Source of the DNA: Methanothermococcus sp. Ax23
GTDB lineage: Archaea; AGJL01; Methanococci; Methanococcales; Methanococcaceae
Direction of reading: 5' to 3'
Length of the DNA: 64,000 bases
NCBI RefSeq assembly: GCF_049075655.1
Contig: NZ_CP157522.1
Location: forward strand, 96,001 to 160,000
Position numbers and translations under genes: made by a program. This document shows positions 29,874 through 59,779 of the stretch, piece by piece (position 1 is the stretch's first letter; every line of letters begins with the position of its first letter). Under the pieces are notes generated by a model that was not told the DNA's origin, did not search any database, and saw only the letters and a list, made by a program, of their open reading frames with translations.

Positions 29874-30387
29874 TTAATTTTTGTTTTTTAATTCATCCCT
29901 AATCTCTTTTAAAATTTCTTTCATTTCGTTCTGTCCTTTTATTATAGTTTCTTGCCCTTTTTTAACTTCTTCCAAAATTCCAAATATCATTTTAATATAT
30001 TTAACTCCTTCATCAAGTTTTTTATTCAATCGGAGTGAGCGAAGCGAACGGAGAGCTACGAAAACATTGGTTTTCGTTCAATTCCATTAAATCATCCGCT
30101 GATATTCTATTGATTCCTTTTGGAAATTCAATATATGAATTTAGTTCTTTTTCCTCAATCTCTTCTATTTTGATTAACTCATCCTTTTTTGCCAATGTCT
30201 TAATATTTCTTTTGAATAAATCTTTTATTTCTTCATCATCAAAGTTTGCCAAAATCCTAACTGTTCCATCCTCATAATTATAAACTACTCCATCAATACC
30301 TAAACCTCTCCCAATGTCTTCTATCCTATCTCTAAATCCAACATGCTGGACTTTACCATATATTTTTAACTCGTAAGTTGTCGCCAT
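29874..30387 (-). pseudogene. Acylphosphatase-domain/coiled-coil protein disrupted by a micro-insertion
   Basis: [20 protein letters not shown] fold motif. Removing 52 bp restores a 153 aa ORF ending ..[21 protein letters not shown]. Confidence 0.85.
30031..30076 (-). mobile_element. Double-hairpin micro-insertion with TTCAAT duplication
   Basis: ttcaat at 30025-30030 and 30077-30082 flanks a GC-rich insert containing gagcgaagcga and acgaaaac-attg-gttttcgt. Confidence 0.85.
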
Positions 30388-34644: not shown

Positions 34645-35918
34645 ATGGTGAATTCCATGCAAGTAACCAGAGTGCTGACAATAAACCTAACAAGAAAACT
34701 AACCAATGAACAATTAATAATCATAAACCATTTAACCTATTCAGCATCAAAACTCTGGAATACATCCAACTACGAAGTAATACAGCGAAATATTAAACCA
34801 AATAAAATAGATGTTCAAATGAAGAACAACTTCTGGTTTAAAAATCTTCATTCACAGTCAGCACAGGCAGTATGTCAAAAACTTCAAATTAGACGAAAAC
34901 CTTCGGTTTTCGTTGCTCGCTTGCTACGCAAGCGATTGCATGGCAAAACTACTTCAAACAGCACACTAAAAGACCACGATACCAACCAAAAGATGGACAC
35001 TTTCCCGTAAAATGGAAGAAGCAAGGTTTCAAAATCATAGGCAATAAGTTAAGGTTATCATTATCTAAACAAACTAAAAACTATCTCAAAGAGAAGCATG
35101 GTATCAAGTCCAAGTACTTATGGGTAGATTTATCGAAAACTCTACCGCTTGATACCATGCAGGTTAAAGAAGTTGAGATAGTTCCGCAGACCATCTATGG
35201 GATAACCTACTACATACTTCACTTAATCCATAAGAAACCAGTAATTCAAGAACCTATCAAAGAAGGTAATATACTAAGTATTGATTTAGGAATTAAGAAT
35301 TTAGCAACAGTAGTAACCAATACGGGCAGTGCAGTAATCTACGATGGAAGAAGGTTAATTTCTAAATTCCGATGGTTTGCTAAAAGTAAAGGAAAAATCC
35401 AATCTACCCTAACAAAGCAAGAGTTAAAATATAATAAACGATTATCCCGCTTAACAGTAAGGGAAAAGAATTATACTAAGGATTATCTACATAAAATAAG
35501 TAAAATGATTATCGATTTTGCAGTGGATAACAAAGTTTCAAGGATTGTAATCGGCGAGTTAAACAAAGGCATTTCAAGTATTGACATTGGAGATAGGGTT
35601 AATCAGCAATTGCATAGAATACCTTTTGGTAGGTTAGTAAGTATGATAACATATAAGGCAGAGGAAAAGGGATTAACAGTAGAACAGGTTAATGAAGCTT
35701 ATACTTCTCAAACTTGCAGTAATTGTGGTGTAGTTAAAAAGAGTAATAGGAAGTATAGGGGTTTGTATGTGTGTAGTGAGTGTGGCATGGTTTTGAATGC
35801 AGACATTAACGGGGCTTTGAATATTTTAAAAAAAGTATCGCATAAGGTAGCCCTGAATCTCCTAAACGGAGATAGGGGTAGTGGGCTTGGCAACCCATGT
35901 AGGGTTAGACCCTGCTAA
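34645..35918 (+). pseudogene. tnpB: TnpB RNA-guided nuclease frameshifted by a 47 bp insertion
   Basis: N-terminal SKLWN..LHSQSAQ; RuvC SIDLG / IVIGEL / NADINGA; Zn finger CSNC..CSEC. Removing 47 bp joins both ORFs into 408 aa with no stops. Confidence 0.9.
34891..34934 (+). mobile_element. Double-hairpin micro-insertion with ATT duplication inside tnpB
   Basis: att|ag-acgaaaacc-ttc-ggttttcgt-tgc-tcgcttgc-tac-gcaagcg|att. Confidence 0.88.
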
Positions 35919-36803: not shown

Positions 36804-37436
36804 TTAGAATATATTTTTTTCCCGGAGCTCCCCTATTATCTCATCATGCACTTCTTCAATGGTCTTTCCAGTGGTATCTATTTGAATATATCCATATTTT
36901 GGTTCAAACAATCTTCTTTCAATGATTTCATGATATTTTTTTCTTACCTTCTCCAACATTTCCTTATTTTCAAATATTTCTTTACTTCTTCCACCCATTC
37001 TTTTAAATGATTCTTCAATATCCACATCTAAAAATATTAAAACATCGGGTTTTTTGGCAAATTTATTGATATTCATGATAAAATCCAATTCAATCCCCTG
37101 AATAGACTGATAAACCATTGAAGAATAAATATATCTATCGCAAACAATGTGGGATTTTTTTAAATTTTGTTCTATATCCACTACATGCTCCACCCTATCT
37201 GCTGCAAACAGCAGTGCAAGTGTTTCTTTTTCGCATTTCGAGCGTAGCGAGGAATGAGCAAGTCCGCAGGATTTGCGTAATTTTTTACCGCTTAATACCT
37301 TTCGTATAAGTTTTCCAATCTCTCCATTTGTAGGTTCGCAGGTGTATTTTCCCTTTATTTTTTCAGAAAGTAGTTTCGACTGGGTAGTTTTTCCGCTTCC
37401 ATCTATTCCTTCAAACACTATGAATTTATTATTCAT
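36804..37436 (-). CDS. tmk: Thymidylate kinase carrying a 15 aa in-frame insertion
   Basis: [31 protein letters not shown]; extra segment [15 protein letters not shown]. Confidence 0.93.
37239..37279 (-). mobile_element. Double-hairpin micro-insertion (AAAT duplication, net 45 bp) inside tmk
   Basis: Minus strand reads aaat|tac-gcaaatcc-tgc-ggacttgc-tcattc-ctcgctacgctcg|aaat. Confidence 0.85.
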
Positions 37437-42447: not shown

Positions 42448-42581
42448 TTCTTTTTTCTTTTTTGTCGAGTGTTTATAAACCTATGTCATTAAAACATAAT
42501 ACTTAACCATTTTAGTTAATAGTTATCTTTATATATTATAATCCATCCAATAATATATTAAAGTTTTTCAAATTGGGTGGC

Positions 42582-45185
42582 ATGATGGTGAAAATAAAAT
42601 CAAATCAAATGTTCGAATCAAAAGTTTTCAGGACGGAAGTAAAATTTTATTTTAATAACACATTTATCAAAATATTTAAAAAATATAGGTTAAATCCTGC
42701 AAAAGGAGGAAAACTTTTTGAGGATAAAATTAGAAAAGGGGAAATAAATGGAGTGGATTTACCTGACATGAGTTATCCTATGCATATATTAAATGGAATA
42801 GTTCCTTCTTTAAAAGTTTTAGAAAATAAATGGTTGGATAGGGGTTTAATAAATAAAAATGATGAAAACAACGATATAAAAATGCTCATAAGGTGTTTAT
42901 GCATTGCATACACATTTCATGATATCAACAAATTGCACAATGAAATTGACCTAAAAAAATCAATTGAAGAATATCTTGAAGATGATTTAAACGATTTGAA
43001 ACTTGAATTAAATGAAGAAGAAAGAGAAATCATAAAATATCTTGTATTGGCAACAGAGGAGAGAACGAGATTCACAATTTCAGATGAAAAGTTACCTTCA
43101 AGATTGGGCATTGATAGATTGATAAAAGATGATTTAATTGAGATTATTCATTTGGCAGATGGCATTTCTATTCCAATAAACGAATATGGGGAGTTGTTGA
43201 GAATTTGGAAAAAATTAAAGGAACATGTAGATGTAAATATAGTTTATTTTGATGAAACACCATATGAGCTCTTAACAAGATTTGTTGTTGAAAGGTTGAG
43301 GGAAGAAGTAAATTGTTGTTATATTATATCACCAAGAGGGTTTATTTATGAGGGGGATTCAAATTTGGATGATATTGGAAACCATACTACTTATTTAAAA
43401 AGAACTTTTGAAGATTTTTTACTTAGAAATGTTGAAAAACTTATTACAGTAGATAGACAAAAAGCTCAGCTTGATGTGTTTAGATTTATTGACATAAATA
43501 TGGAAAACATGCGAAAGTTTATGGATAAAATCCTTAAAAAATACGAGTTTGATTATTTTTATAGGGGAATTACAAAAAACGAGGAAATAAATGAGTTATT
43601 TGTTAAAGAATTCGAAGGATTTAATGATGATGAAAAACGGCAATTTATACTTTTAAAATTTTTACTGCAATTAACACCGACTGAAAGCAATAAAAAGGAT
43701 GTTAAGTTGTTGAAAGATAAATTAAGTAAAAAATATTTTGAAGTTAATAATTCCTTCAATATGAATGAAAAAATTGTTGATGATATTAAAAATAGTAAAG
43801 ATACAGGTTTGAAAAACTATTTGAAATTGTATCTTGCTACAAAAGTTGGATTTAGTGAAGAAGATATATTAAACGATTTAAAATATCTATTAAATGAAAA
43901 TTACAAGGGTTCCGAAAAAGTTGATTTAAACATAGTAATTAACGAGATTATGAATTATATATATTTAAATGGCGTAAAACTAAAAAATATAGATGTAAAG
44001 GACATAGGGTCAAAAAAGAAAATTTGTTCATTATGTGGATGCGAATCCGAGATTGTTGCAAACCAAAATTTATGTTTTGGGTTTAAACCAAGAGGATTTA
44101 CTAACAGAACCGTAGTATCCTTGAATAACACTGCTAAAAATATATGTCCGTTATGTTTAACCGAAGTTATATTCAGAAAAATAGTTTTCGGCAATAAGGA
44201 AAATGTTCAATCAGTATATATCGATGCCTACGATTACTTTGTTCCAATACTCGATGAAGAATTAACAAAATATGTGGAAGAAATGTCTGAAAACTTAGGG
44301 AATTTCTTAAAAAACGATATTGAGGATTATAAAAATTCCATAGTATATGGATTTAGGGTTAAAAGTGGGGAGGAACTAACTCCATTTTTAATGAGTTTTG
44401 TGGATATATCAAATCAGGTTGATTTCATAAGATTTTATAGAAATATATTGAATTTTGTATATAACACAGGTTTTAAAGTTTATCTAACTTATCCGTTTAA
44501 TCCAGACAAAATAAAGAAAGAGACTACATTATTTGATTATTCCCCTAAATCATTTAAAAAATTAAAATGGGAACGGGTGAGGATTGATGAAATTGAAAAT
44601 GTAAAAAAAGAGTTTGATTTATTATGGAAGTTAGGGTATACAATAAAAGGAGGGTCTAAATCCGCAAACATTGTAGTTTCTCTGTTTAACGACTATGCAG
44701 ACAATCCAATGGCATTTTTTTACTATTTATCTAAATTAGATAACCCATCATCTTTTGTGAATAAAGATGAGGTTGAATTAAATCCCATTGTAAAAAGAAT
44801 TGGTGGTGAGAAAATGAATATTTTAGAAAAACTTGCAGATGTGGCTTCTGATATAGAGTGGTCAAGTAAAAGTGCTTCATCCAAAACATCCATGATTAGG
44901 GAAAGTTTGGATGTATTAAAAACTGGGGTTAAAAAGGGGTATGATGAAGAGAATATAAAGGCATTAATGGCAGGTATGCTTTATCGAAAGTATCCTTATC
45001 AAAGTAAAAAAGAACGGATAGAAGAATTTTGTAATATATTATATAATGAATTATTTAAAGGCGTATGGAAGGGGAAGATTCCATCTAAAAAAGAGCAGAG
45101 GTATTGGACATACGGGTTTGGCCTATATTACTCAATAAAATCCGATGAAAAAAGAAAAGAGTATTTTTCTAAAAAAGAAAATTAA
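42582..45185 (+). CDS. cas10d: Type I-D large subunit Cas10d with N-terminal HD nuclease
   Basis: H..HD..H.AD pattern (MHILNG, FHDINK, HLAD), Zn finger CSLC..CPLC. It precedes csc2, csc1 and an HD-less cas3'. Confidence 0.82.
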   Translation: MMVKIKSNQMFESKVFRTEVKFYFNNTFIKIFKKYRLNPAKGGKLFEDKIRKGEINGVDLPDMSYPMHILNGIVPSLKVLENKWLDRGLINKNDENNDIKMLIRCLCIAYTFHDINKLHNEIDLKKSIEEYLEDDLNDLKLELNEEEREIIKYLVLATEERTRFTISDEKLPSRLGIDRLIKDDLIEIIHLADGISIPINEYGELLRIWKKLKEHVDVNIVYFDETPYELLTRFVVERLREEVNCCYIISPRGFIYEGDSNLDDIGNHTTYLKRTFEDFLLRNVEKLITVDRQKAQLDVFRFIDINMENMRKFMDKILKKYEFDYFYRGITKNEEINELFVKEFEGFNDDEKRQFILLKFLLQLTPTESNKKDVKLLKDKLSKKYFEVNNSFNMNEKIVDDIKNSKDTGLKNYLKLYLATKVGFSEEDILNDLKYLLNENYKGSEKVDLNIVINEIMNYIYLNGVKLKNIDVKDIGSKKKICSLCGCESEIVANQNLCFGFKPRGFTNRTVVSLNNTAKNICPLCLTEVIFRKIVFGNKENVQSVYIDAYDYFVPILDEELTKYVEEMSENLGNFLKNDIEDYKNSIVYGFRVKSGEELTPFLMSFVDISNQVDFIRFYRNILNFVYNTGFKVYLTYPFNPDKIKKETTLFDYSPKSFKKLKWERVRIDEIENVKKEFDLLWKLGYTIKGGSKSANIVVSLFNDYADNPMAFFYYLSKLDNPSSFVNKDEVELNPIVKRIGGEKMNILEKLADVASDIEWSSKSASSKTSMIRESLDVLKTGVKKGYDEENIKALMAGMLYRKYPYQSKKERIEEFCNILYNELFKGVWKGKIPSKKEQRYWTYGFGLYYSIKSDEKRKEYFSKKEN
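44814..45185 (+). CDS. cas11d: Putative internally translated Cas11d small subunit (123 aa)
   Basis: In-frame ATG at 44814 is preceded by a strong RBS (GGTGGTGAG, 44802-44810). The downstream domain looks helical. Confidence 0.7.
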   Translation: MNILEKLADVASDIEWSSKSASSKTSMIRESLDVLKTGVKKGYDEENIKALMAGMLYRKYPYQSKKERIEEFCNILYNELFKGVWKGKIPSKKEQRYWTYGFGLYYSIKSDEKRKEYFSKKEN

Positions 45186-45227: not shown

Positions 45228-46256
45228 ATGGCAAAACAAAAAATAGAACCTGTTGAGATACAATATGATAAAGAAGTTGTTAATGAGTTTAGAGAAAAAA
45301 TTTACTCCATAATACCGAGTGAATACTTCCAAGATGAATTTGACAAGAGAACACCAAATGTAATAAAAGTGGCAACTATTAGGGAAACTACAGGATATTT
45401 AATAAACCGTTCAACTGAATCAGACGAAGTGATAAGCACATCAATTGATAACAAAGAACCTGTTGTAATTCCATCAAGAAAATTAAAATCAAAGGAAAAA
45501 TTAACTGGTTTAATATTGTGCAGAAAATACCATGTTGTTCATCCAAAATTGGAGTATAATTTTATAAAAGAATCAAAACAATTGGCAAATCCAAATTCCA
45601 TAATATTCGGTGATTCAGTAACTCAATCCAACGATTCCACAGGTCTCCCAGCAAGGGCGATATATGAATGGGCGTATTCAATAAGAGATAAAGACGAAAT
45701 AACCGAAGAATTTACCCATAACGCACTAAGTGAAGAGGGGACAATGTGGGACAAAGACAAGGGTTCTCAAAGGCAGAGTTTGTATGAAATTCAATATATT
45801 AAACCAGGAGTTTATTTCCCACAGTTTTTAACATTCTATGATATTACACCAGAGGGTTTTCTGCATACAATAATTTCCCATGTAAAAACCATACGGTATG
45901 GAGCTCAGCAAAATGTAATGGATGCAAACATGAAAAACAATATAATTGCCATTGCATTGGATACCTTTGAACCACCTGTATCTTCCTATTCAATATCCAA
46001 AGAATTTACGGGAGAGGTTAATTTTGAGAACATTCGGAAATTTATTACAGATAAATTAAATAACAATTCATCTGTTGTTATTAAAGACAAAGAATTGGAA
46101 GAGTTTAATTCATTAGTAGATGAATATTTGAATGATGATGAAAAACTAAAGCAGTTGTATTTAAAAATGCTCAATGATAGCATAAATTATATGATAAAAT
46201 GTAACATATTAAAAAATAAAGAAGTGGATAATTTATTGAAAGAATTGGGTGTCTAA
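45228..46256 (+). CDS. csc2: Type I-D Cas7 (Csc2)
   Basis: IRET.GY, IPSRKLK..EK, IFGDS, THNA.SE.GTM, PGVYFP, RYGAQ. Confidence 0.82.
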   Translation: MAKQKIEPVEIQYDKEVVNEFREKIYSIIPSEYFQDEFDKRTPNVIKVATIRETTGYLINRSTESDEVISTSIDNKEPVVIPSRKLKSKEKLTGLILCRKYHVVHPKLEYNFIKESKQLANPNSIIFGDSVTQSNDSTGLPARAIYEWAYSIRDKDEITEEFTHNALSEEGTMWDKDKGSQRQSLYEIQYIKPGVYFPQFLTFYDITPEGFLHTIISHVKTIRYGAQQNVMDANMKNNIIAIALDTFEPPVSSYSISKEFTGEVNFENIRKFITDKLNNNSSVVIKDKELEEFNSLVDEYLNDDEKLKQLYLKMLNDSINYMIKCNILKNKEVDNLLKELGV

Positions 46257-46257
46257 T

Positions 46258-46899
46258 ATGCTTAAACATTACAAAATAACCCTTCTTTCTCCATTATTTT
46301 CTTATAACAAAACAGAAGGGGGAGTAGCTTCAACTGAGCCGTTTATTGGAGATATTGCCTTAGACTATGCATTAAATTTTAATTTAGCTAAAAAAAGAGA
46401 ATACACATATCAGGTGAAAAATAAGCCTAATTACGAAGAAATAAAAGAATTTGGTTTCTTCTGGACGGTTGGAAGACCCATTGATGTTGAAAAAACAAGA
46501 ATATATGCAAAAAAAACTTCTGAAATCTCTGATTATATGGTTAGAAAGAATATTATTGAACAGATGGGGAAGGGATTATTTAAAAATTATTTCCACATAC
46601 AGGGAATCAAGGAGGGTTCTACTTTTGAAGCATCCCTATGGATGGATGATAAATCCATTAATCTTCCAGAGCGATTTACATTAAGGGTAGGCACAGGTCG
46701 AGAATGTTTGTTACTGTTGGAGGAAAAAGATACTAATGACAATAACAATTCAGAGCTCTGGTTAAATCTCTATACTATTAAAAAAATATTTGGAAAGGAT
46801 ATAAAATTGAGGGAGAATCAAAATATAAAATTTGTTTTATCTAACTACATATTGATTACCAATTGTAAGGATGATGATGTTTTAAAATTATTTGCTTAA
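46258..46899 (+). CDS. csc1: Type I-D Cas5 (Csc1)
   Basis: SPLF, IGDIAL.YA, C-terminal RVGTGR; lies between csc2 and cas3'. Confidence 0.72.
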   Translation: MLKHYKITLLSPLFSYNKTEGGVASTEPFIGDIALDYALNFNLAKKREYTYQVKNKPNYEEIKEFGFFWTVGRPIDVEKTRIYAKKTSEISDYMVRKNIIEQMGKGLFKNYFHIQGIKEGSTFEASLWMDDKSINLPERFTLRVGTGRECLLLLEEKDTNDNNNSELWLNLYTIKKIFGKDIKLRENQNIKFVLSNYILITNCKDDDVLKLFA

Positions 46900-46929
46900 T
46901 TTTTTTATTTAATTGAATTGAGGGGTATT

Positions 46930-48909
46930 ATGGAATGCTTAAATATTATTGTTTCTAAAAAATGTCTTCCTTTTGGAAATAAAATAATAGATAAATATAA
47001 TATAACCCTTCACAGGTTTCAAGAGATTTTTTATTCAGATATTGCTGAATTAAATAATATAAATTTTATCGTAGCTCCTACTGGGGCAGGTAAAACTTTT
47101 TCTTTTTCATTTCCAATTATTTATGCGGAGGATAATGGCTTTTTTACAAAACCAAGGGGTTTGATTGTAGTTCCCACAAATGCATTGGTAATGGATATTG
47201 AAAAAACCCTTAAAAATTTGGGAATAAAAACATCAGTATTAACAGGGAGCTCACTTACAGAAAAGGGTAGAAAAAGAGGGGAAGAATTAATTGAAATTAC
47301 AAAAAATAGCGAAATTGTTATAACAAATCCAGATATAATAAATTACTTGTTGCATGGTGGATATCACAGATTTGGGCACGTAAAAAATTTCCCGGATTGG
47401 AGCGAATTTTTTAGTAAATTTGATTACATTATTTTTGATGAATATCATCTATATGATGAGGAACAGCTTGGGACAATCTTAGTTTTATTTTTATCTACAT
47501 GGAACTATTTTAAAAAAATAAGGTGGTTTTTTGTTTCAGCTACCCCTGAAGAAAATTTAATGGAGCTCTTCAAAGAACATGGTATTATGTCAAATATAAT
47601 TACACAGCCATTGGACAACAATGGCAGTGGAAGAACAATCCAGGGGGAGATGGATATTGAATTTATTAAAATCTCAAAAAATATTGAAAGAAGTTTGTTT
47701 GGATATTTAATAACCGATGGAAAGCTAAACTACAATGTAAAAATGGAAATAATGTCATCATTATCAAAAAATGAAAAGGTTTTGATAATATTTAATTCAT
47801 TAAGGGATGCTATGAACTTTAAATATATACTTAAACAGGAATTGAAGGAAGAAGGCGTTAATATATGGATAGATACAGGATTGCAAACAAAAGAAAAAAA
47901 GGAAAATAACGACCTTAACCAAATGGAAAATGCCGATATTATAATTACAACTTCAAAGTCAGAAGTCGGAGTAAATTATCCAGTATCATTGTGCTATATG
48001 GATTCTGGGAGGTATTTAAGAAATTTTATGCAGAGGATTGGAAGGGTTGGAAGAGGCAGGGAAAAATGCAAGATATACTGCACTATCAATCCAAAAATAT
48101 ACAATAGACTAGCAGAAAATATCAATAATCAAATAGATTATTATGATTTTGTGGATTTAATGAAAAACGCCTTTGAAGATAAGGAATTTAAAAAAGATAA
48201 AATTCCTAAATTCTGCGGTGCGATTCTGTGGAGTCTTATAAACTCAATGGAAGAATGCCTATACAAGCAATCATACAATAGAAGAAAAATTTTAATGGAT
48301 TTAGCCGATAAATTTCAATACTATTGGGCATTCCATCACTTAAATAAAAAGATAAAGGCGATTGAAGACGATATTGACGAGGATATTGTTGATGAGGATG
48401 TGAGGCATAATCTATTGAAATGGTGGAAGACTATAAAAAATTCATTTAAGAGATTTAGAAATGACAGCATTATTTGGAAAGTAATATATGAGGATGGAAA
48501 AGAAACAGAATATGATTTAATATGGCTCTTAAATAATGCGTTTGTCAGAGTAGATAGAGAAAATAAAATTATTTTTATTGAAGATTTTAGGGATAAAAGG
48601 GAAAATGTAGTTGTAGGCATTGATACATATTCATTATTGGAGAATATCATGTCTGCCACAACTATCGGTGGAAACAATAAAGCTGAATGGTTTAAATTTA
48701 TATATTCTGACTATATTGGAGATATATTCATAGAAAAATTTGAGCAATGGAAACTTCATGCAAGAAAATATTTTGAAGATAAGGAATTTTTTGAAAATCT
48801 GACAAATGATATTGAAACGCTTTCCCCCATATACTCAAAAAAAAGAATTAAAATTTATGATTTAAAAGTTAATTTGGGGGAGATATTTAATGATGATGAC
48901 ATTCTTTAA
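46930..48909 (+). CDS. cas3: Cas3' helicase lacking an HD domain
   Basis: APTGAGKT, PTNAL, DEYH, SAT, QRIGRVGR. Confidence 0.88.
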   Translation: MECLNIIVSKKCLPFGNKIIDKYNITLHRFQEIFYSDIAELNNINFIVAPTGAGKTFSFSFPIIYAEDNGFFTKPRGLIVVPTNALVMDIEKTLKNLGIKTSVLTGSSLTEKGRKRGEELIEITKNSEIVITNPDIINYLLHGGYHRFGHVKNFPDWSEFFSKFDYIIFDEYHLYDEEQLGTILVLFLSTWNYFKKIRWFFVSATPEENLMELFKEHGIMSNIITQPLDNNGSGRTIQGEMDIEFIKISKNIERSLFGYLITDGKLNYNVKMEIMSSLSKNEKVLIIFNSLRDAMNFKYILKQELKEEGVNIWIDTGLQTKEKKENNDLNQMENADIIITTSKSEVGVNYPVSLCYMDSGRYLRNFMQRIGRVGRGREKCKIYCTINPKIYNRLAENINNQIDYYDFVDLMKNAFEDKEFKKDKIPKFCGAILWSLINSMEECLYKQSYNRRKILMDLADKFQYYWAFHHLNKKIKAIEDDIDEDIVDEDVRHNLLKWWKTIKNSFKRFRNDSIIWKVIYEDGKETEYDLIWLLNNAFVRVDRENKIIFIEDFRDKRENVVVGIDTYSLLENIMSATTIGGNNKAEWFKFIYSDYIGDIFIEKFEQWKLHARKYFEDKEFFENLTNDIETLSPIYSKKRIKIYDLKVNLGEIFNDDDIL

Positions 48910-48917
48910 GGGATATT

Positions 48918-49436
48918 ATGGATTTAACAAAGTCATTCAGGGACTTAAAAATCAGAGGAACACAGATAAACTACTACTTCATCTGTAAAACAAAACTTTA
49001 TCTTTTTTCGAAAAATATCCAAATGGAAAAAGAGAGCGATATTGTAGAGCTCGGCAATATAATTCATAGGAGGTCCTACAAAAACGAAAAAAGGGATGTG
49101 ATTATTGACAGTATAGCCATAGATTTTATAAAGAATAATGACGGAGCTCTGGAAATTCACGAGGTCAAAAAATCCGATAAAATGAAAACAGCAGATAGAT
49201 ATCAACTTCTCTATTATTTGTTTTATCTAAAAAAATTAGGCATAGAGGCTATTGGAATTATAAATTATCCTTCAAAACATAAGGTAGAAAAAATAACATT
49301 AACTGAAAAAGGCGAAAAAGAATTGATGAAAATTATTGAAGATATTGAAAACATAATAAATCGTGATGAACCGATAAAACCCGAAAGAAAGAGCTATTGC
49401 AAAAAATGTGCATATTATGAATTTTGCTTTTCATAA
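48918..49436 (+). CDS. cas4: Cas4
   Basis: YYFICK, ID, EVKK, QL.YY, CKKCAYYEFC. Confidence 0.93.
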   Translation: MDLTKSFRDLKIRGTQINYYFICKTKLYLFSKNIQMEKESDIVELGNIIHRRSYKNEKRDVIIDSIAIDFIKNNDGALEIHEVKKSDKMKTADRYQLLYYLFYLKKLGIEAIGIINYPSKHKVEKITLTEKGEKELMKIIEDIENIINRDEPIKPERKSYCKKCAYYEFCFS

Positions 49437-49451
49437 TACGCGGGGGAAAAT

Positions 49452-50417
49452 ATGAAATCGAATAAATACATTACAACCGATGGAAAACTTGTAAGAAAAG
49501 AAAATACCATATATTTTATAGATAAAAATGGGAAAAGAACTCCAATTCCAGTTGAAAAAATATATGCAATATATAGCTATGGTAGTTTGTCATATACTTC
49601 AAAGGTCGTTGAATTATTGGCAAAATATAATGTTCCGATTCATTATTTTAATAGAAATGGTTGGTATGTGGGGAGCTTCTATCCAAAGGGGGAGCGATTT
49701 TCTGGAAATGTTGTGGTGCATCAATCCAGTCATTATTTAGATAAATACAAAAGGAACCACCTTGCAAAGAAATTCGTTGAAGGTAGTGCTAAAAATATCC
49801 ATCGGAATCTAAGTAGATATAAGGTTGATTTTCCAATCGACGACATAATGAAGAGGTTGGATAATTCAAGCAACATAACGGATATAATGTCTGTTGAGGC
49901 ATTGATGAGGAATGAATACTACGGAAATTTTGATAAGATAATAAATAACTTTCAATTTGAAAAAAGAAGCAGAAGACCGCCACACAACGAGATAAATGCT
50001 TTAATCAGTTTTGGGAACTCGCTTTTATATGCCACAGTAATTACTGAAATATTCAACACATACCTTCATCCAACAATATCCTACCTGCACGAGCCGTCGG
50101 ATAGAAGATTTTCACTTGCCCTTGATATTGCCGATGTTTTTAAGCCGTTATTGGTGGATAGGGTAATATTTAATCTAATAAATAGGAAAATAATAAGGGA
50201 AGACCATTTTGAGAAGGATTTGAATTTCTGTCTGTTAAATGACGAAGGGAGAAAATTATTTTTAAGTTATTATAAAAAACAGCTTGAAAATACTATAAAA
50301 CATAGAAAATTAGGTAGAAATGTCTCATATCAGAGATTAATAAGATTGGAGTGCTACAAACTCCAAAAACATATTTTAGGGATGGAAAAATACGAACCTT
50401 TTATAATTTGGTGGTGA
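49452..50417 (+). CDS. cas1: Cas1
   Basis: NALISFGNSLLY, SYLHEP, LALDIADVFKP. Confidence 0.95.
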   Translation: MKSNKYITTDGKLVRKENTIYFIDKNGKRTPIPVEKIYAIYSYGSLSYTSKVVELLAKYNVPIHYFNRNGWYVGSFYPKGERFSGNVVVHQSSHYLDKYKRNHLAKKFVEGSAKNIHRNLSRYKVDFPIDDIMKRLDNSSNITDIMSVEALMRNEYYGNFDKIINNFQFEKRSRRPPHNEINALISFGNSLLYATVITEIFNTYLHPTISYLHEPSDRRFSLALDIADVFKPLLVDRVIFNLINRKIIREDHFEKDLNFCLLNDEGRKLFLSYYKKQLENTIKHRKLGRNVSYQRLIRLECYKLQKHILGMEKYEPFIIWW

Positions 50418-50425
50418 TGATTTAT

Positions 50426-50689
50426 ATGTATGTGATAATCGTTTATGACGTAGGGGTTGAGAGAGTAAATAAAATAAAGAAATTTTTAAGAACTTGGTTA
50501 AATTGGGTCCAAAACAGTGTGTTCGAAGGAGAATTAACTGAGTCCGAATTTTTAAAAGTGGAAGATGGGCTTAAAAATATAATTGATAAAGAATTAGATA
50601 GCATAATAATATTCAAATTAAGAGATAGAAAGTATATAGATAGAAAGGTATTAGGTATAGAAAAAAATATTCAATCAGATATATTATAG
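50426..50689 (+). CDS. cas2: Cas2
   Basis: YVIIVYDV, VQNSVFEG, DSI. Confidence 0.95.
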   Translation: MYVIIVYDVGVERVNKIKKFLRTWLNWVQNSVFEGELTESEFLKVEDGLKNIIDKELDSIIIFKLRDRKYIDRKVLGIEKNIQSDIL

Positions 50690-50702: not shown

Positions 50703-51414
50703 ATGAGGGCAAAATTAGAGTTTAAAACTGAAAAAGGAACTTTAATCCCATTTAATCATCAGTATCATCTGGCATCTGCCATATACAATGTGCTTAACAA
50801 TGCCGATGGGGAGTATTCAAAAAAGCTTCATGACTACAAAAAATATAAATTTTTCACTTTTTCTTTGTTGAATATTCCTAAACGAAAAATGGACAAAAAT
50901 GGGATAATTACAAGAGACGGTAAGGTTTATCTATACTTATCTTCGCCAAATAACGAATTTTTAGGCAATTTTGTAAGTGGGATACTGGACTGTTATGGAA
51001 GTATTACAATTAATGGTGTAGAGCTCCTGCCAAATACTCTCACCATTGAAAAAATTCCAGAAGAATTTGATATATTGAAGACGATTTCTCCCGTTTATTT
51101 AAAAACTCTTGTTGATAACGAAAACGGTGCTAAAAAAATATATGATTTGCTTCCAGATGATGCCAAATTTTACGAGAACTTTAAAAATAACTTAAAAAGA
51201 AAGTATGAAGAGTTTTTATGGCAAAAAATGCGATTTGGATTTTAATTTTGAAATCTTAAAGTCAAAACAAAAAAGAATGAAAATAAAAAATACTTTTTGT
51301 AGATGTTCTGAATTGGTCTTTAAGGTTGAAGGAGATTATGATTTAATTAGATTTGGTTATGAGTGTGGATTTGGTGAAAAGAATTCTATGGGTTTTGGAA
51401 TGTGTAGGTTTTAA
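50703..51414 (+). pseudogene. cas6: Cas6 with a single-base frameshift
   Basis: IPFNHQY..LH..FFTFS in ORF1 and the G-loop GFGEKNSMGFG in ORF2. Deleting one T from 51213-51217 gives KYEEFYGKKCD. Confidence 0.85.
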
Positions 51415-51787
51415 ATCCTTACTATTAACTATTATTTTTTTATAATATTGGTTATTCTTTTTCTATTTTTGAAAATATCCCCTCTACTTTCGTCGTAAAT
51501 GTCTATTATTTTTGATATAATTAATAAATTTAAATAAATGAAATTATGGGGATTTTTAAAATATCTATACTATATTTAGTTATTTTATGGTTTTCCTTGC
51601 TAATTTTTTAAATTTTTAAAAAATACTTATAAAATATCGTTTATTTCTTTAAATATTTGTAAATTATCTGTCGTAGACGAACCCTAATACTATATATACT
51701 CTAAAAATCAATGTGATTCGAGATTCGAAAGTTTTAAATAGAAGAAATGCAAAGGTATTTAGTGTAAAATAAGGAATATTTTAAACT
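51415..51787 (+). promoter_or_regulatory. CRISPR leader with BRE/TATA-like element
   Basis: AT-rich, ORF-free segment. gaaagTTTTAAATA at 51727-51740 lies about 48 bp before the first repeat. Confidence 0.7.
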
Positions 51788-54700
51788 GTTAAAATCAGAC
51801 CATAGTGGGATGGAAATTCAAAGAAGGATGCAATAGGTAGGAAAATAGAAAGGGGTTAAAATCAGACCATAGTGGGATGGAAATCGTGAAAAGGATAATA
51901 TATATATATTAGCTCTATGGCGTTAAAATCAGACCATAGTGGGATGGAAATATATCAGTTGGATTCAGTATCAATTTTGGCGTTTGAAGTTAAAATCAGA
52001 CCATAGTGGGATGGAAATATCCAGCCTTTATCATCATTATATGTAATTCTCGGACGTTAAAATCAGACCATAGTGGGATGGAAATATTTAACATATGTAT
52101 AGGTACGCAATATACCAAATCCGTTAAAATCAGACCATAGTGGGATGGAAATGTTTTTCTTATGCTTTTGTTTTCCCAAAGCTTTGCTTTGTTAAAATCA
52201 GACCATAGTGGGATGGAAATATTCTTTTATATTTACTTCGTATATGTCTTTTTCAATGTTAAAATCAGACCATAGTGGGATGGAAATTTCTCTCTATTGT
52301 ATTACTATGGTAATACTAATATATAGTTAAAATCAGACCATAGTGGGATGGAAATCAAAATGTAAATGATGCCCTTAAATCCGTTTTAAAGGGTTAAAAT
52401 CAGACCATAGTGGGATGGAAATGCGTCATAGTCACACTTACATATAGTGTCTATATTTTGGTTAAAATCAGACCATAGTGGGATGGAAATAATGAAAGTG
52501 CGTCAAAATCAATTATTTCAATTTCGTTAAAATCAGACCATAGTGGGATGGAAATAAAAAGCGTATTAGACGATATTAATCTCAACATGTTAAAATCAGA
52601 CCATAGTGGGATGGAAATTTTTTTTCCAAAGTTAATTATAAATATTGTTTTTTTTAGTTAAAATCAGACCATAGTGGGATGGAAATTCGTCAGTTGGTTC
52701 AAGTGTTCCGTCCTCTATGGTTAAAATCAGACCATAGTGGGATGGAAATCAATAACTGCTTCATTAATTGTAATTGTAACATCTAGTTAAAATCAGACCA
52801 TAGTGGGGTGGAAATTTAAATCAAATACGATTATTGTATTGTTCTTTTGTAAAGTTAAAATCAGACCATAGTGGGATGGAAATTTTATAGGAGAGGGGTT
52901 TGTTTTTTCCCACACTCCCACGTTAAAATCAGACCATAGTGGGGTGGAAATTTAATTCGTCTAAGTTCATAATATCACCTTTCATTCATTCGTTAAAATC
53001 AGACCATAGTGGGATGGAAATTTTGATTCTTGGTTTATTATTCCAACATGTCCAGATTGTTAAAATCAGACCATAGTGGGGTGGAAATTTCATTATCCAA
53101 CAATAGCGTAATTGATGACGATTTAGTTAAAATCAGACCATAGTGGGATGGAAATAATATTGAGATTGTAGGGATGAGTAGTAGCATATCCCCGTTAAAA
53201 TCAGACCATAATGGAAATATAAAAACTGCAGAAGAAATATATAAACACTTGAAAAAGGTTAAAATCAGACCATAGTGGGATGGAAATTTTTATGACTGAA
53301 ACATATTCTTTTATGGTATATTTGTTAAAATCAGACCATAGTGGGATGGAAATAATATATTTTCATACTATTTAAACCTTACTAAAAAATAGTTAAAATC
53401 AGACCATAGTGGGATGGAAATTTTCATGAAGAAGAACTAAAAAATGATGAGGATTTAAGTTAAAATCAGACCATAGTGGGATGGAAATATTTATTGGCTC
53501 GCTTCGCTCGCCAATCAATAGGAACCTGTTAAAATCAGACCATAGTGGGATGGAAATTCTCTTGCGTATTTGTGGGGTGGTGGGGGTTCTCTTCCGTTAA
53601 AATCAGACCATAGTGGGATGGAAATCTATCTTATGGGGGTATTCTGGAATTACGAGAGTTTGTTAAAATCAGACCATAGTGGGATGGAAATTCAAAACAA
53701 GGTTGGGCTTTTGCCCTGACAATATATGAAGTTAAAATCAGACCATAGTGGGATGGAAATTAGGAAGTTTATTCGTTCTATTCTGATCGATAAACTCGTT
53801 AAAATCAGACCATAGTGGGATGGAAATTTTGGATGTTTAATTGAAAGTGGATTTATTAAAGTTAAAATCAGACCATAGTGGGATGGAAATATGGGAATGA
53901 GTTAAAATACTGCGTATTTGTTCTGAACGTTAAAATCAGACCATAGTGGGATGGAAATCATATAAAAAAAGCGGCAGAGATGAGGCTCACAGGTTTGTTA
54001 AAATCAGACCATAGTGGGATGGAAATTCATTAATTCAATAATGATGTTAGACTTTGTTTTTACCGTTAAAATCAGACCATAGTGGGATGGAAATGTTTGG
54101 ATCGTTGCCAGGATGAAAACAACAGTAGGTTAAAATCAGACCATAGTGGGATGGAAATGATGGTCCTGTTGAGTTTATTGGGTGATTGGGTGATTGTTAA
54201 AATCAGACCATAGTGGGATGGAAATACTGCATATCTTCGTCCTTGTTTTGCATTATCAATATAGTTAAAATCAGACCATAGTGGGATGGAAATATCTGTA
54301 ATTACGTAATCGATTAAATAGAAATCGTTAAAATCAGACCATAGTGGGATGGAAATCTAACAACGTTGTTGGTAAAATCATGGGATAATCCAAAGTTAAA
54401 ATCAGACCATAGTGGGATGGAAATTTTCTTTTAAAAATTCATGGTAGAGCCTGTGTGGTTAAAATCAGACCATAGTGGGATGGAAATTTTCTTTTAAAAA
54501 TTCATGGTAGAGCCTGTGTGGTTAAAATCAGACCATAGTGGGATGGAAAGTATTTTCAGATATTGGCGTTATTGTCAAATATTGAGAGGTTAAAATCAGA
54601 CCATAGTGGGATGGAAAGCGATTTGGGTATTGGCGGATTACTTGAGGGGGTGGTAGTTAAAATCAGACCATAGTGGGATGGAAATTCCTGCTGGTGCAAG

Positions 54701-55266
54701 GACAGTCATCAGGGGCTGTTGTGTTAAAATCAGACCATAGTGGGATGGAAATGGTGAAATGATACTAAACGCATTTAATTTTATATGGTTAAAATCAGAC
54801 CATAGTGGGATGGAAATATCGTCTGGCAATCTAGATAATATTTCTGCTGGGCAGTTAAAATCAGACCATAGTGGGATGGAAATTTGTCGTTCTTTATATT
54901 GTTAAAATCAGACCATAGTGGGATGGAAATTGATGTTGAACCAAGTAGCATTGAAGAATTCAAAGAGTTAAAATCAGACCATAGTGGGATGGAAATTATT
55001 TTGTTGAATACATTTTTATTTTTCGAGATAATTGTTAAAATCAGACCAAGTGGGATGGAAATAACTCAATAATTAACTTAACGGATAATGAATATAGAAA
55101 GTTAAAATCAGACCATAGTGGGATGGAAATAGAAATTATAGAGCGTATGGCAGATATACTTTTAGAGGAGTTAAAATCAGACCATAGTGGGATGGAAATA
55201 CGATATTGAATGCACAAGTAAGTTATGGAAGTTGGTGTTAAAATCAGACCATAGTGGGATGGAAAT
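51788..55266 (+). CRISPR. CRISPR array, about 53 repeats / 52 spacers
   Basis: 30 bp repeat GTTAAAATCAGACCATAGTGGGATGGAAAT. Spacers are mostly 33-40 nt. Count is manual. Confidence 0.98.
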
Positions 55267-59589: not shown

Positions 59590-59779
59590 TTTTTATCAAA
59601 TATATACTTGAATACAGCTTTTTGAGCGTGTAATATAATTTCCAGCGCAACCTTTAAAAAAGGTTGCATCCAAAGTCCAATACTCACTATCGCTCGTATT
59701 GGAACCTAAAATTGAACATTTACTTTTTATCAAATATATACTTAAACACAGCCTTTTGAGCGTGTAATCTATTTTCAGC
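59590..59779 (-). repeat. Diverged ~57 bp duplicate of the argF 3' end (59590-59646 vs 59724-59779) with a hairpin pair in between
   Basis: The two copies align directly. Hairpins gcaaccttt/aaaggttgc (59647-59667) and tccaatac/gtattgga (59676-59703) lie between them. Confidence 0.85.

What the first reader, a model, noticed from the sequence alone, without database searches (positions are those of the whole stretch)
53489..53527. CRISPR spacer carries the micro-element core hairpin
Seen: spacer 26 (atttATTGGctcgcttcgctcgCCAATcaataggaacct) is a stem enclosing CTCGCTTCGCTCG. The same core appears in the inserts in tmk (ctcgctacgctcg), the acylphosphatase-like gene (ttcgcttcgctca) and near argF (ctcactatcgctcg...ggaacct). 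The spacer has normal length (39 nt), so it was probably acquired from DNA that contained a copy. Inference: the elements also reside on viruses or plasmids (a possible vector), or this is a self-targeting spacer, which could explain selection for the broken cas6.
Basis: partly seen in the sequence, partly recalled or inferred. Interest (0 to 1): 0.7.

Follow-up and report, generated by a model that had tools for sequence, protein, structure and literature searches.

The report
CRISPR spacer holding a mobile-element hairpin
One ordinary CRISPR spacer of this heat-loving methanogen was copied from unknown DNA that carried a small, very stable hairpin of the kind found in its own mobile micro-elements and, unexpectedly, in unrelated microbes and viruses; it does not target the cell's own genome.

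Summary
Spacer 26 of 52 (window 53489-53527, 39 nt) is a 5-bp stem, ATTGG/CCAAT, around CTCGCTTCGCTCG. Related cores lie in tmk, in the acylphosphatase gene tail and beside argF.

It is not self-targeting. The best match elsewhere in the genome is 14 nt. I found no protospacer in 40 genomes of the order, or in the phage, plasmid, IMG/VR, metagenome or GTDB collections.

The hairpin belongs to small mobile palindromic elements. A 45-nt and a 57-nt copy are missing from the same sites in close relatives. The spacer's order of parts (core, then GGAACCT) matches a module found in only 4 of 40 genomes, all in the host's own clade.

One core-bearing spacer among about 2,373 repeat units is what random sampling of such DNA predicts (about 1.0). 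No hotspot or selection is needed.

The only cas6 is frameshifted, but nothing links that to this spacer.

The surprise is the hairpin itself. The same 21-mer occurs in 53 metagenome contigs, 16 genome contigs and 1 giant-virus contig, with stems that covary. Its other strand reads GCGAAGC, the extra-stable mini-hairpin. The source of the spacer remains unknown.

The parts
53489..53527 (+). Spacer 26 of 52, 39 nt
53493..53515 (+). Hairpin: stem ATTGG/CCAAT around the 13-nt core
   Evidence: the stems of 84 related hairpins covary
53498..53510 (+). Core CTCGCTTCGCTCG. The opposite strand, CGAGCGAAGCGAG, contains GCGAAGC.
   Evidence: review PMC13037366
53521..53527 (+). GGAACCT tail. The same block ends the clade-specific subfamily I module.
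51788..55266 (+). CRISPR array: 53 repeats (one truncated) and 52 spacers. The leader lies at 51415-51787.
45228..50689 (+). Type I-D cas genes: csc2, csc1, cas3', cas4, cas1, cas2. The 870-aa ORF at 42573-45185 just upstream has no family hit and is presumably cas10d.
50703..51414 (+). cas6 split by a frameshift near an A-run at about 51230. The N fragment is 180 aa and the C fragment 56 aa. It is the only cas6 in the genome.
37239..37283 (-). 45-nt in-frame micro-element insert in tmk, absent from the two closest relatives
30029..30080 (-). Micro-element that forms the last codons and the stop of the acylphosphatase-domain gene
59647..59709 (+). Subfamily I module (hairpin A, hairpin B, AACCTAA) between 53-nt imperfect direct repeats (59590-59642 and 59724-59776) of the argF 3' end
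54931..54966 (+). A different spacer that matches the resident integrated pT26-2-like plasmid at 34 of 36 nt

Best explanation
Spacer 26 is a normal type I-D spacer. Cas4-Cas1-Cas2 cut it from DNA that is not in this genome. That stretch happened to span the 3' half of a small palindromic micro-element: hairpin B (a stem plus the 13-nt core) followed by a GGAACCT tail. Elements of this kind are mobile in the host's clade.

Shown: the spacer's sequence, position and normal length; the absence of any self-target; the mobility of the host elements; and the occurrence of the hairpin on viral contigs.

Inferred: that the source was a plasmid, a virus or the chromosome of a related strain from the same clade; and that the spacer is only a passive record of that contact. 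It has no link to the cas6 frameshift and cannot act on the chromosomal element copies, which share only 13-14 nt with it.
For: Normal length and position.

No self match: the best match elsewhere in the genome is 14 nt.

The core is not there by chance: 0.03 sites expected in the window. The host has 21 stemmed hairpins around an 11-nt version of the core, against a mean of 4.9 for 30 shuffled cores.

The elements are mobile. The 45-nt tmk insert is absent from the two closest relatives, G033 and G027, and from G034. A 57-nt copy at C1:567 kb is absent from the same site in G026 and G027.

The order 'core, then GGARCCT within 4-18 nt' occurs in only 4 of 40 genomes of the order, all in the host's genus. 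The spacer is the only variant that does not have the TTTTGG stem.

The nearest hairpins by sequence are the repeated ATTGC-core-GCAAT copies in 10 of 17 genomes of the sister family. They differ from the spacer by a compensatory pair. One copy differs by a single mismatch.

The same array targets a resident pT26-2-like integrated plasmid at 34 of 36 nt. A module copy abuts that plasmid's attR.

The rate needs no special cause. One core-bearing spacer was found among about 2,373 repeat starts in 40 genomes. About 1.0 is expected if spacers sample DNA with the host's density of 29 sites per 1.67 Mb.
Against: No protospacer was found, so the source is unknown. The searches were: 0 of 39 other genomes at up to 3 mismatches for the 39-mer; 0 of 39 for its 3' 24-mer; nothing beyond the hairpin in the phage or plasmid collections; and 0 exact hits for a 20- or 21-mer of the 3' half in IMG/VR, metagenome or GTDB contigs.

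The collection scans need exact words, so a protospacer with scattered mismatches would be missed.

The link to subfamily I rests on a 13-nt block and a 7-nt block, with spacing that differs by 5 nt. The same hairpin occurs in unrelated organisms, so the shared core alone does not prove homology with the host elements.

The subfamily I element found no match in the plasmid or phage collections. The resident 7.7-kb plasmid C2 carries no core.
Confidence: 0.62

Rival explanations
1. The hairpin is a generic, exceptionally stable structural motif, such as a terminator, an origin or a priming signal. Many unrelated replicons evolve or acquire it. The spacer came from a virus that has such a hairpin, and its likeness to the host's micro-elements is only a shared motif, not descent from the same element family.
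For: The 21-mer TTGGCTCGCTTCGCTCGCCAA occurs in 53 metagenome contigs, 16 genome contigs (haloarchaea, Acidobacteria, an Akkermansia MAG, Peregrinibacteria and others) and 1 giant-virus contig. The longest matches to the spacer lie in a tailed-phage contig (26 of 26 nt; terminase) and in two AT-rich contigs (28 of 29 nt). The opposite strand carries GCGAAGC, which the review PMC13037366 reports in phage origins, ssiA and N4 promoters (passages read).
Against: The GGAACCT tail, in the same order and orientation as in subfamily I, is seen in only 4 of 40 genomes, all of the host's clade. None of the far matches continues into the spacer's flanks. None of those contigs can be tied to a Methanococcales host. 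The best match of any other of the 92 spacers to them is 17 nt.
Confidence: 0.25
2. Self-derived spacer. It was taken from a chromosomal element copy of this lineage that was later lost or mutated. The resulting autoimmunity favoured inactivation of cas6.
For: cas6 is frameshifted and is the only copy. Another spacer matches the chromosome, inside an integrated plasmid, at 34 of 36 nt.
Against: No site in the assembly matches more than 14 nt. The three nearest relatives also lack it. The spacer sits mid-array, with 25 newer spacers on the leader side, so acquisition continued after it. The frameshift lies in a homopolymer and could be a sequencing error. The 34-of-36 match has TCT where a GTN PAM would lie (that GTN is the I-D PAM is recalled, not tested here).
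Confidence: 0.06
3. A micro-element inserted itself into an existing spacer or repeat of the array.
For: The elements are mobile and insert into genes.
Against: The unit is 39 nt, within the normal range. The shortest insert documented is 45 nt. The flanking repeats are intact, and hairpin A is absent.
Confidence: 0.02

Closest known systems
MJRE1-3, the palindromic repetitive elements of Methanocaldococcus jannaschii (Suyama, Lathe and Bork 2005, FEBS Lett)
   Same: Both are small palindromic repeats in a Methanococcales genome, mostly intergenic, with a few inserted in frame in coding genes. The sister-family genomes here carry many ATTGC-core-GCAAT hairpins preceded by a CCATAGGGG...CCCCTATTGG hairpin.
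   Different: The paper is not held. I saw only its citation and one sentence about it in PMC2229807. Its abstract is recalled from memory. I could not compare sequences, so identity with the MJRE families is untested. To my knowledge no CRISPR spacer link was reported.
Mini-hairpin DNA d(GCGAAGC) / GCGNAGC (review PMC13037366)
   Same: The strand opposite the core reads CGAGCGAAGCGAG. Loop variants seen here (TTC, TAC, TCC) read GAA, GTA and GGA on that strand, which fits GNA. Hairpin A loops of the form CCTTCGG read CCGAAGG, the ssiA mini-hairpin named in the review.
   Different: The 13-mer adds a conserved tandem mismatch, T.C/C.T, which would be G.A/A.G on the other strand, plus an outer pair. 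This extended form is not described in the passages I read. No melting data exist for it.
REP elements and RAYT transposases; IS200/IS605-derived palindromic elements
   Same: Both are short hairpin repeats with mobile behaviour, some inside genes. Some host copies carry GTAG just 5' of the hairpin. The genome has 21 TnpB-like matches.
   Different: The genome has no Y1 transposase or RAYT (0 matches to PF01797). The spacer and subfamily I have no GTAG tag. Hairpin clusters lie at the 5' end of only 3 of 21 TnpB matches in the motif scan, plus one broken copy found by eye. No TnpB was detected beside the far copies.
CRISPR spacers against pT26-2 family integrated plasmids in Methanococcales (Badel et al. 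2019, PMC6972569)
   Same: This genome holds a 21.4-kb pT26-2-like element at a tRNA-Leu att site and a spacer that matches it. The paper reports such spacers in 15% of Methanococcales genomes (passages read).
   Different: Spacer 26 itself matches no known plasmid. The word 'hairpin' does not occur in that paper.
Rickettsia palindromic elements and mitochondrial double-hairpin elements
   Same: Both are small hairpin elements that insert in frame into protein genes without destroying them.
   Different: They occur in different organisms and no sequence relation was tested. Both names are recalled, except that PMC2229807 discusses fusions of repeats with genes.

Membership tests
Type I-D CRISPR spacer | Flanked by array repeats, with length in the array's range | tested here: met
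Type I-D CRISPR spacer | Adjacent I-D cas genes (csc2, csc1, cas3', cas10d) | tested here: met
   one search found Csc2, Csc1 and the I-D type Cas3'. The 870-aa presumed Cas10d has no family hit.
Type I-D CRISPR spacer | Protospacer with a GTN PAM | not testable with these tools
   No protospacer was found. That GTN is the PAM is recalled.
Self-targeting spacer | Near-full match elsewhere in the same genome | tested here: not met
   The best match is 14 nt.
Host subfamily I module | 13-nt core inside a stem | tested here: met
   The core is exact. The stem is ATTGG/CCAAT rather than CCAAAA/TTTTGG.
Host subfamily I module | GGA(A/G)CCT directly after the stem | tested here: inconclusive
   The block is present but lies 5 nt further downstream.
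Host subfamily I module | Hairpin A upstream and long imperfect direct repeats outside | not testable with these tools
   The spacer is too short to include them. All 6 host loci examined have 25-59 nt repeats.
MJRE (M. jannaschii) | Sequence similarity to the MJRE1-3 consensus | not tested
   The paper and its sequences are not held.
REP/RAYT | GTAG tag beside the hairpin and a RAYT gene in the genome | tested here: not met
   The spacer has no GTAG. PF01797 has 0 matches in the genome.
IS200/IS605-derived element | Shares end hairpins with resident TnpA/TnpB elements | tested here: inconclusive
   There is no TnpA. Of 21 TnpB matches, 3 have the core near the 5' end in the scan, plus one broken copy found by eye.

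The most novel reading that the evidence does not exclude
The hairpin in this spacer is one copy of a module shared across domains of life. It has a variable Watson-Crick stem around a fixed 13-nt core, and the purine strand of the core folds as a GCGAAGC mini-hairpin extended by tandem G.A pairs. In this reading the module spreads on, or is repeatedly recruited by, small mobile elements in archaea, bacteria, tailed phages and giant viruses. The partner hairpin of the archaeal module (GCAACYTTTAARAAARGTTGC) also has sequence twins in giant-virus-like contigs. The spacer would then be an immune record that DNA carrying this module entered a hyperthermophilic methanogen.
Probability: 0.25. Interest if true: 0.7.

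Novelty: new member of a known kind. Interest (0 to 1): 0.42.

Why it matters
As a spacer it is ordinary. It shows that this archaeon met DNA, so far unsampled, that carried one of the palindromic micro-elements which also remodel its own genes. The rate of such spacers needs no special mechanism. It also removes the suggested link between self-targeting and the broken cas6.

The wider value lies in the hairpin. A fixed 13-nt core with covarying stems recurs in Methanococcales, haloarchaea, several bacteria, a tailed-phage contig and giant-virus contigs. The mismatches it conserves make sense only as a structure on one strand. If that reflects a common mechanism, such as priming, termination or recognition by a mobilising enzyme, it would open a testable question about how tiny hairpin elements move and why they are tolerated inside genes.

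Tried and rejected
Rfam. There was no family at gathering score in the window. Nothing meaningful appeared around the argF copy. In 20 far loci the only hits were sub-threshold miRNA-like matches in L021, none on the hairpin itself, though one lies next to it.

TnpB link. A profile built from the host's full-length TnpB-like proteins found no homologue among the ORFs of all loci held at that point (L002-L083). I dropped the idea that the hairpin is generally an IS200/IS605 end.

pT26-2 link across the order. The T26-6p domain is found in 12 of 40 genomes. Only one exact core lies within 20 kb of such a gene (in G039). That copy sits between 24-nt direct repeats beside ordinary genes and is not at a tRNA. 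This gives no general association.

Orientation of host copies relative to crude ORF calls gave a mixed picture: 5-6 sense and 2 antisense inside ORFs. I drew no conclusion.

The 'pattern read backwards' control of the genome search is invalid for this core. The core is nearly a mirror repeat, so the reversed pattern hits the same sites.

I could not compute a chance expectation for the 21-mer in the metagenome and genome collections, because their sizes are not given. The argument that these hits are real hairpins rests on the complementary extension of their stems: 70.7% of cells are paired against 50.6% in shuffles, with 0 of 500 shuffles as high, and 33-48% when the partner is slid. In 64 of the 84 rows the inner 4 pairs were fixed by the search pattern, so only the outer pairs of those rows carry information.

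As a result no earlier notes were seen and no reads were laid. The cas6 frameshift and crRNA expression are unchecked. Supplementary files of papers were not consulted. Those of PMC6972569 may list att sites and spacers that bear on the integrated plasmid.
Full report
**Observation.** Window 53489-53527 reads ATTTATTGGCTCGCTTCGCTCGCCAATCAATAGGAACCT. It lies between two copies of the repeat GTTAAAATCAGACCATAGTGGGATGGAAAT. The array runs from 51788 to 55266. BLAST of the repeat found 52 copies, and one 102-nt interval hides a truncated 53rd, so this is spacer 26 of 52 counted from the leader. The genome (1.66 Mb plus a 7.7-kb second contig, 32% G+C) holds 92 spacer intervals with this repeat. 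Of these, 88 are 33-40 nt and 5 are 39 nt.

The stem ATTGG/CCAAT encloses CTCGCTTCGCTCG. The predicted RNA fold is -7.7 kcal/mol, against a mean of -3.0 (sd 2.7) for 90 spacers. Six spacers fold more stably. Related cores lie at 37239-37251 (-) in tmk, at 30036-30048 (-) in the tail of an acylphosphatase-domain gene, and at 59683-59696 (+) beside argF. Shuffles predict 0.03 sites with up to 2 mismatches in the window.

**Context.** Upstream lie csc2, csc1, a type I-D cas3', cas4, cas1 and cas2. An 870-aa ORF with no family hit precedes them and is presumably cas10d. cas6 is split by a frameshift near an A-run. The 180-aa fragment covers Pfam Cas_Cas6_C positions 8-62, and the 56-aa fragment in the next frame covers positions 69-124. 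tblastn finds no other cas6 in the genome.

**Search for the protospacer.** In the host genome the best match outside the array is 14 nt. In the 39 other genomes of the order there is no match to the 39-mer at up to 3 mismatches, and none to its 3' 24-mer at up to 3 mismatches. In the phage and plasmid collections, blastn finds only the hairpin part, 18-26 nt, at E-values of 0.5-7. An exact 20- or 21-mer from the 3' half is absent from IMG/VR, from the metagenome contigs and from the GTDB contigs.

The spacer is therefore not self-targeting in this assembly, and its source is unsampled. These collection scans need exact words, so a diverged protospacer could be missed.

**What the core is in the host.** With up to 2 mismatches the core occurs 30 times on the chromosome and never on the small contig. 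A stricter test asks for an 11-nt version of the core flanked by a stem of at least 4 bp. It gives 21 sites, against a mean of 4.9 for 30 shuffled cores. The copies sit in small modules of two or three hairpins whose stems differ from copy to copy.

The modules are mobile:
- The tmk copy is a 45-nt in-frame insert, 37239-37283 (-), bounded by AAAT. It is missing from the two closest relatives (90% and 84% protein identity) and from a third.
- A 57-nt copy at C1:567 kb is missing from exactly that site in two relatives, which read straight through. Similar 55-nt pieces lie elsewhere in those genomes.

**Subfamily I.** One subfamily, which I call subfamily I, has this layout: hairpin A (GCAACCTTTAAAAAAGGTTGC), a short linker, hairpin B (CCAAAA-core-TTTTGG), then A/GCCTAA. 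Each of the 6 host loci examined is flanked by imperfect direct repeats of the target, 25-59 nt long and 83-100% identical. One of these loci stands for 7 tandem copies. Two copies lie at the 3' ends of tRNA-Gly and tRNA-Val genes, one at the argF 3' end and one at a gene's 5' end.

One more lies directly beside the attR of a 21.4-kb element at C1:282061-303440. That element is bounded by copies of the 3' part of tRNA-Leu. It encodes a tyrosine integrase, a primase-helicase, a HerA/FtsK-like ATPase and a protein with the three T26-6p domains, so it is an integrated plasmid of the pT26-2 family. Another spacer of this array (54931-54966) matches that plasmid at 34 of 36 nt, with TCT in the PAM position. 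Badel et al. report tRNA att sites and CRISPR spacers against this plasmid family in Methanococcales (PMC6972569, passages read).

**How the spacer relates to these elements.** The combination 'core, then GGARCCT within 4-18 nt' occurs in 4 of 40 genomes, all in the host's genus. Every copy except the spacer has the TTTTGG stem. The argF copy reads TATTGGAACCT after the core, where the spacer reads AATAGGAACCT 5 nt further on. These agree at 9 of 11 positions.

By hairpin sequence alone, the nearest relatives are the repeated ATTGC-core-GCAAT hairpins in 10 of 17 genomes of the sister family. They differ from the spacer by one compensatory pair, and one copy differs by a single mismatch. Their flanks, however, are unrelated to the spacer's. 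I read the spacer as the 3' half of an unsampled variant of the clade's own module. This rests on two short blocks and is an inference.

**Rate.** I searched 40 genomes for a degenerate core within 30 nt upstream of a repeat start, in either orientation. Only this spacer was found, among 2,373 repeat starts (a few per genome are background). The same degenerate core occurs 29 times in the host's 1.67 Mb. If spacers sampled DNA of that density, about 1.0 would carry a core. No hotspot, enrichment or counter-selection is needed to explain one.

**Structure of the core.** The exact 13-mer occurs in 23 of 40 genomes of the order and in 0 of 7 genomes of one genus. I then looked at hairpins with at least 4 outer Watson-Crick pairs and the skeleton NTCNC-NNN-GNTCN:
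- Positions 1 and 13 pair as C-G (7 of 10 in the host), T-A (2) or do not pair (1).
- Positions 4 and 10 pair as G-C (5), A-T (3) or do not pair (2).
- The skeleton fixes positions 2/12 and 3/11 as T.C and C.T; the exact and near-exact cores keep them so.
- The triloop is TTC, TAC, TCC or TTT (variants also).

On the opposite strand this reads C-G, G.A, A.G, G-C, C-G around a GAA, GTA or GGA loop. That is the GCGNAGC mini-hairpin, extended by what would be tandem G.A pairs. The review PMC13037366 gives a Tm of 76.5 degrees C for d(GCGAAGC). It lists the motif in the phage G4 origin, in ssiA (as CCGAAGG) and in N4 promoters (passages read). Many hairpin A loops here read CCTTCGG, the complement of CCGAAGG. 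That the purine strand is the functional one is an inference. Nearest-neighbour folding does not capture it.

**Occurrence outside the order.** The 21-mer TTGGCTCGCTTCGCTCGCCAA occurs in 1 IMG/VR contig, in 53 metagenome contigs and in 16 GTDB contigs. The IMG/VR contig has a giant-virus (NCLDV-type) major capsid protein and minor capsid protein P11. Its 12.7-kb locus holds 6 copies of the core with at most 1 mismatch. The GTDB contigs come from Halopiger, Halorussus, other Halobacteriales, Terracidiphilus, an Akkermansia MAG, Peregrinibacteria and others.

Beyond the fixed TTGG/CCAA, the flanks differ between contigs yet stay complementary. Over 84 distinct hairpins, 70.7% of the cells in an 8-bp stem are paired, against 50.6% in shuffles (0 of 500 as high) and 33-48% when the partner is slid. 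Two haloarchaeal genomes hold 18 and 34 exact cores. The Akkermansia MAG holds 73, many near contig ends. In haloarchaea the hairpin again follows a second, variable hairpin.

The longest matches to the spacer are 26 of 26 nt in a contig that encodes a terminase and a virion protein and 28 of 29 nt in two AT-rich contigs. In every case the match ends where the palindrome ends.

Hairpin A of subfamily I, written GCAACYTTTAARAAARGTTGC, occurs in 16 IMG/VR contigs of 26-39% G+C. Four are named as giant-virus MAGs. The hairpin is usually followed by GC(C)AAA and often comes right after a stop codon. Two control stems gave 3 and 0 contigs. I did not verify that those 16 contigs are viral. I have no explanation for these twins. 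Convergence on very stable hairpins and spread of a common module are both open.

**Mobilising enzyme.** This is unknown. The genome has 21 TnpB-like matches and no Y1 transposase. Hairpin clusters containing the core lie at the 5' end of 3 of the 21 matches in the motif scan, and of one further broken copy found by eye. In two closely related copies the hairpins appear in a permuted order. No TnpB was detected near the far copies. No Rfam family covers the hairpin.

**Literature.** Searches for the 13-mer in either orientation found one unrelated paper. The searches turned up nothing in the held library on this hairpin or on spacers that carry such elements. The MJRE paper of 2005 is not held and may describe the sister-family elements. 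A REP survey (PMC3733652, passages read) does not mention methanogens or haloarchaea. A 2024 review of prokaryotic MITEs (PMC10969869, passages read) mentions neither M. jannaschii nor CRISPR.

**Verdict.** The spacer is real and was acquired normally from DNA, now unknown, that carried a micro-element hairpin. It is not self-targeting and has no demonstrable link to the split cas6. As a CRISPR finding it is ordinary. The hairpin it preserves belongs to a motif with an unexpectedly wide and unexplained distribution.

Noticed in passing
window 54931-54966; genome C1:296238-296273: Another spacer matches, at 34 of 36 nt, a 152-aa ORF inside a resident 21.4-kb pT26-2-like integrated plasmid (C1:282061-303440, tRNA-Leu att). 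The PAM position reads TCT.
   Followed up: partly
L002, L015-L083: The 21-mer hairpin TTGGCTCGCTTCGCTCGCCAA occurs in 70 contigs from haloarchaea, several bacterial phyla, a tailed-phage contig and a giant-virus contig, with complementary but different outer stems. An Akkermansia MAG has 73 exact cores, many near contig ends.
   Followed up: partly
L177-L192: Hairpin A of the archaeal module (GCAACYTTTAARAAARGTTGC) occurs in 16 IMG/VR contigs, 4 of them named giant-virus MAGs. It is often right after a stop codon and is followed by GC(C)AAA. Two control stems gave 3 and 0 contigs.
   Followed up: partly
genome C1:869123-869818: There are seven identical tandem copies (112-nt period) of the subfamily I module plus its flanking repeat. 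A relative has three tandem copies with a 132-nt period.
   Followed up: no
window 59590-59776; genome C1:256.6, 303.5, 1472.2 and 1640.7 kb: Subfamily I modules of 62-87 nt are each flanked by 25-59 nt imperfect direct repeats of the target (tRNA 3' ends, the argF 3' end, a gene's 5' end). These are far longer than usual target-site duplications and look more like att sites.
   Followed up: partly
window 50703-51414: The only cas6 in the genome is split by a frameshift near an A-run. It could be a sequencing error. Reads could not be checked.
   Followed up: partly
window 42573-45185: The 870-aa ORF ahead of csc2 has no NCBIfam or Pfam hit. It is presumably a divergent Cas10d.
   Followed up: no
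genome C1, 21 places; window about 34800-35900: There are 21 TnpB-like (Cas12f1-like_TNB) matches and no Y1 TnpA. Two near-identical copies (C1:336.4 kb and 1308.4 kb) carry the same three hairpins at their 5' end in a different order.
   Followed up: partly
genome C1:1008554, 1373231, 1003522, 50780: Further core copies lie inside long ORFs of 323-575 aa, two in sense and two in antisense by crude ORF calls. In-frame insertion is therefore not limited to tmk.
   Followed up: no
window 54395-54549: Two neighbouring spacers of the array are identical: a 63-nt unit duplicated at 100% identity.
   Followed up: no
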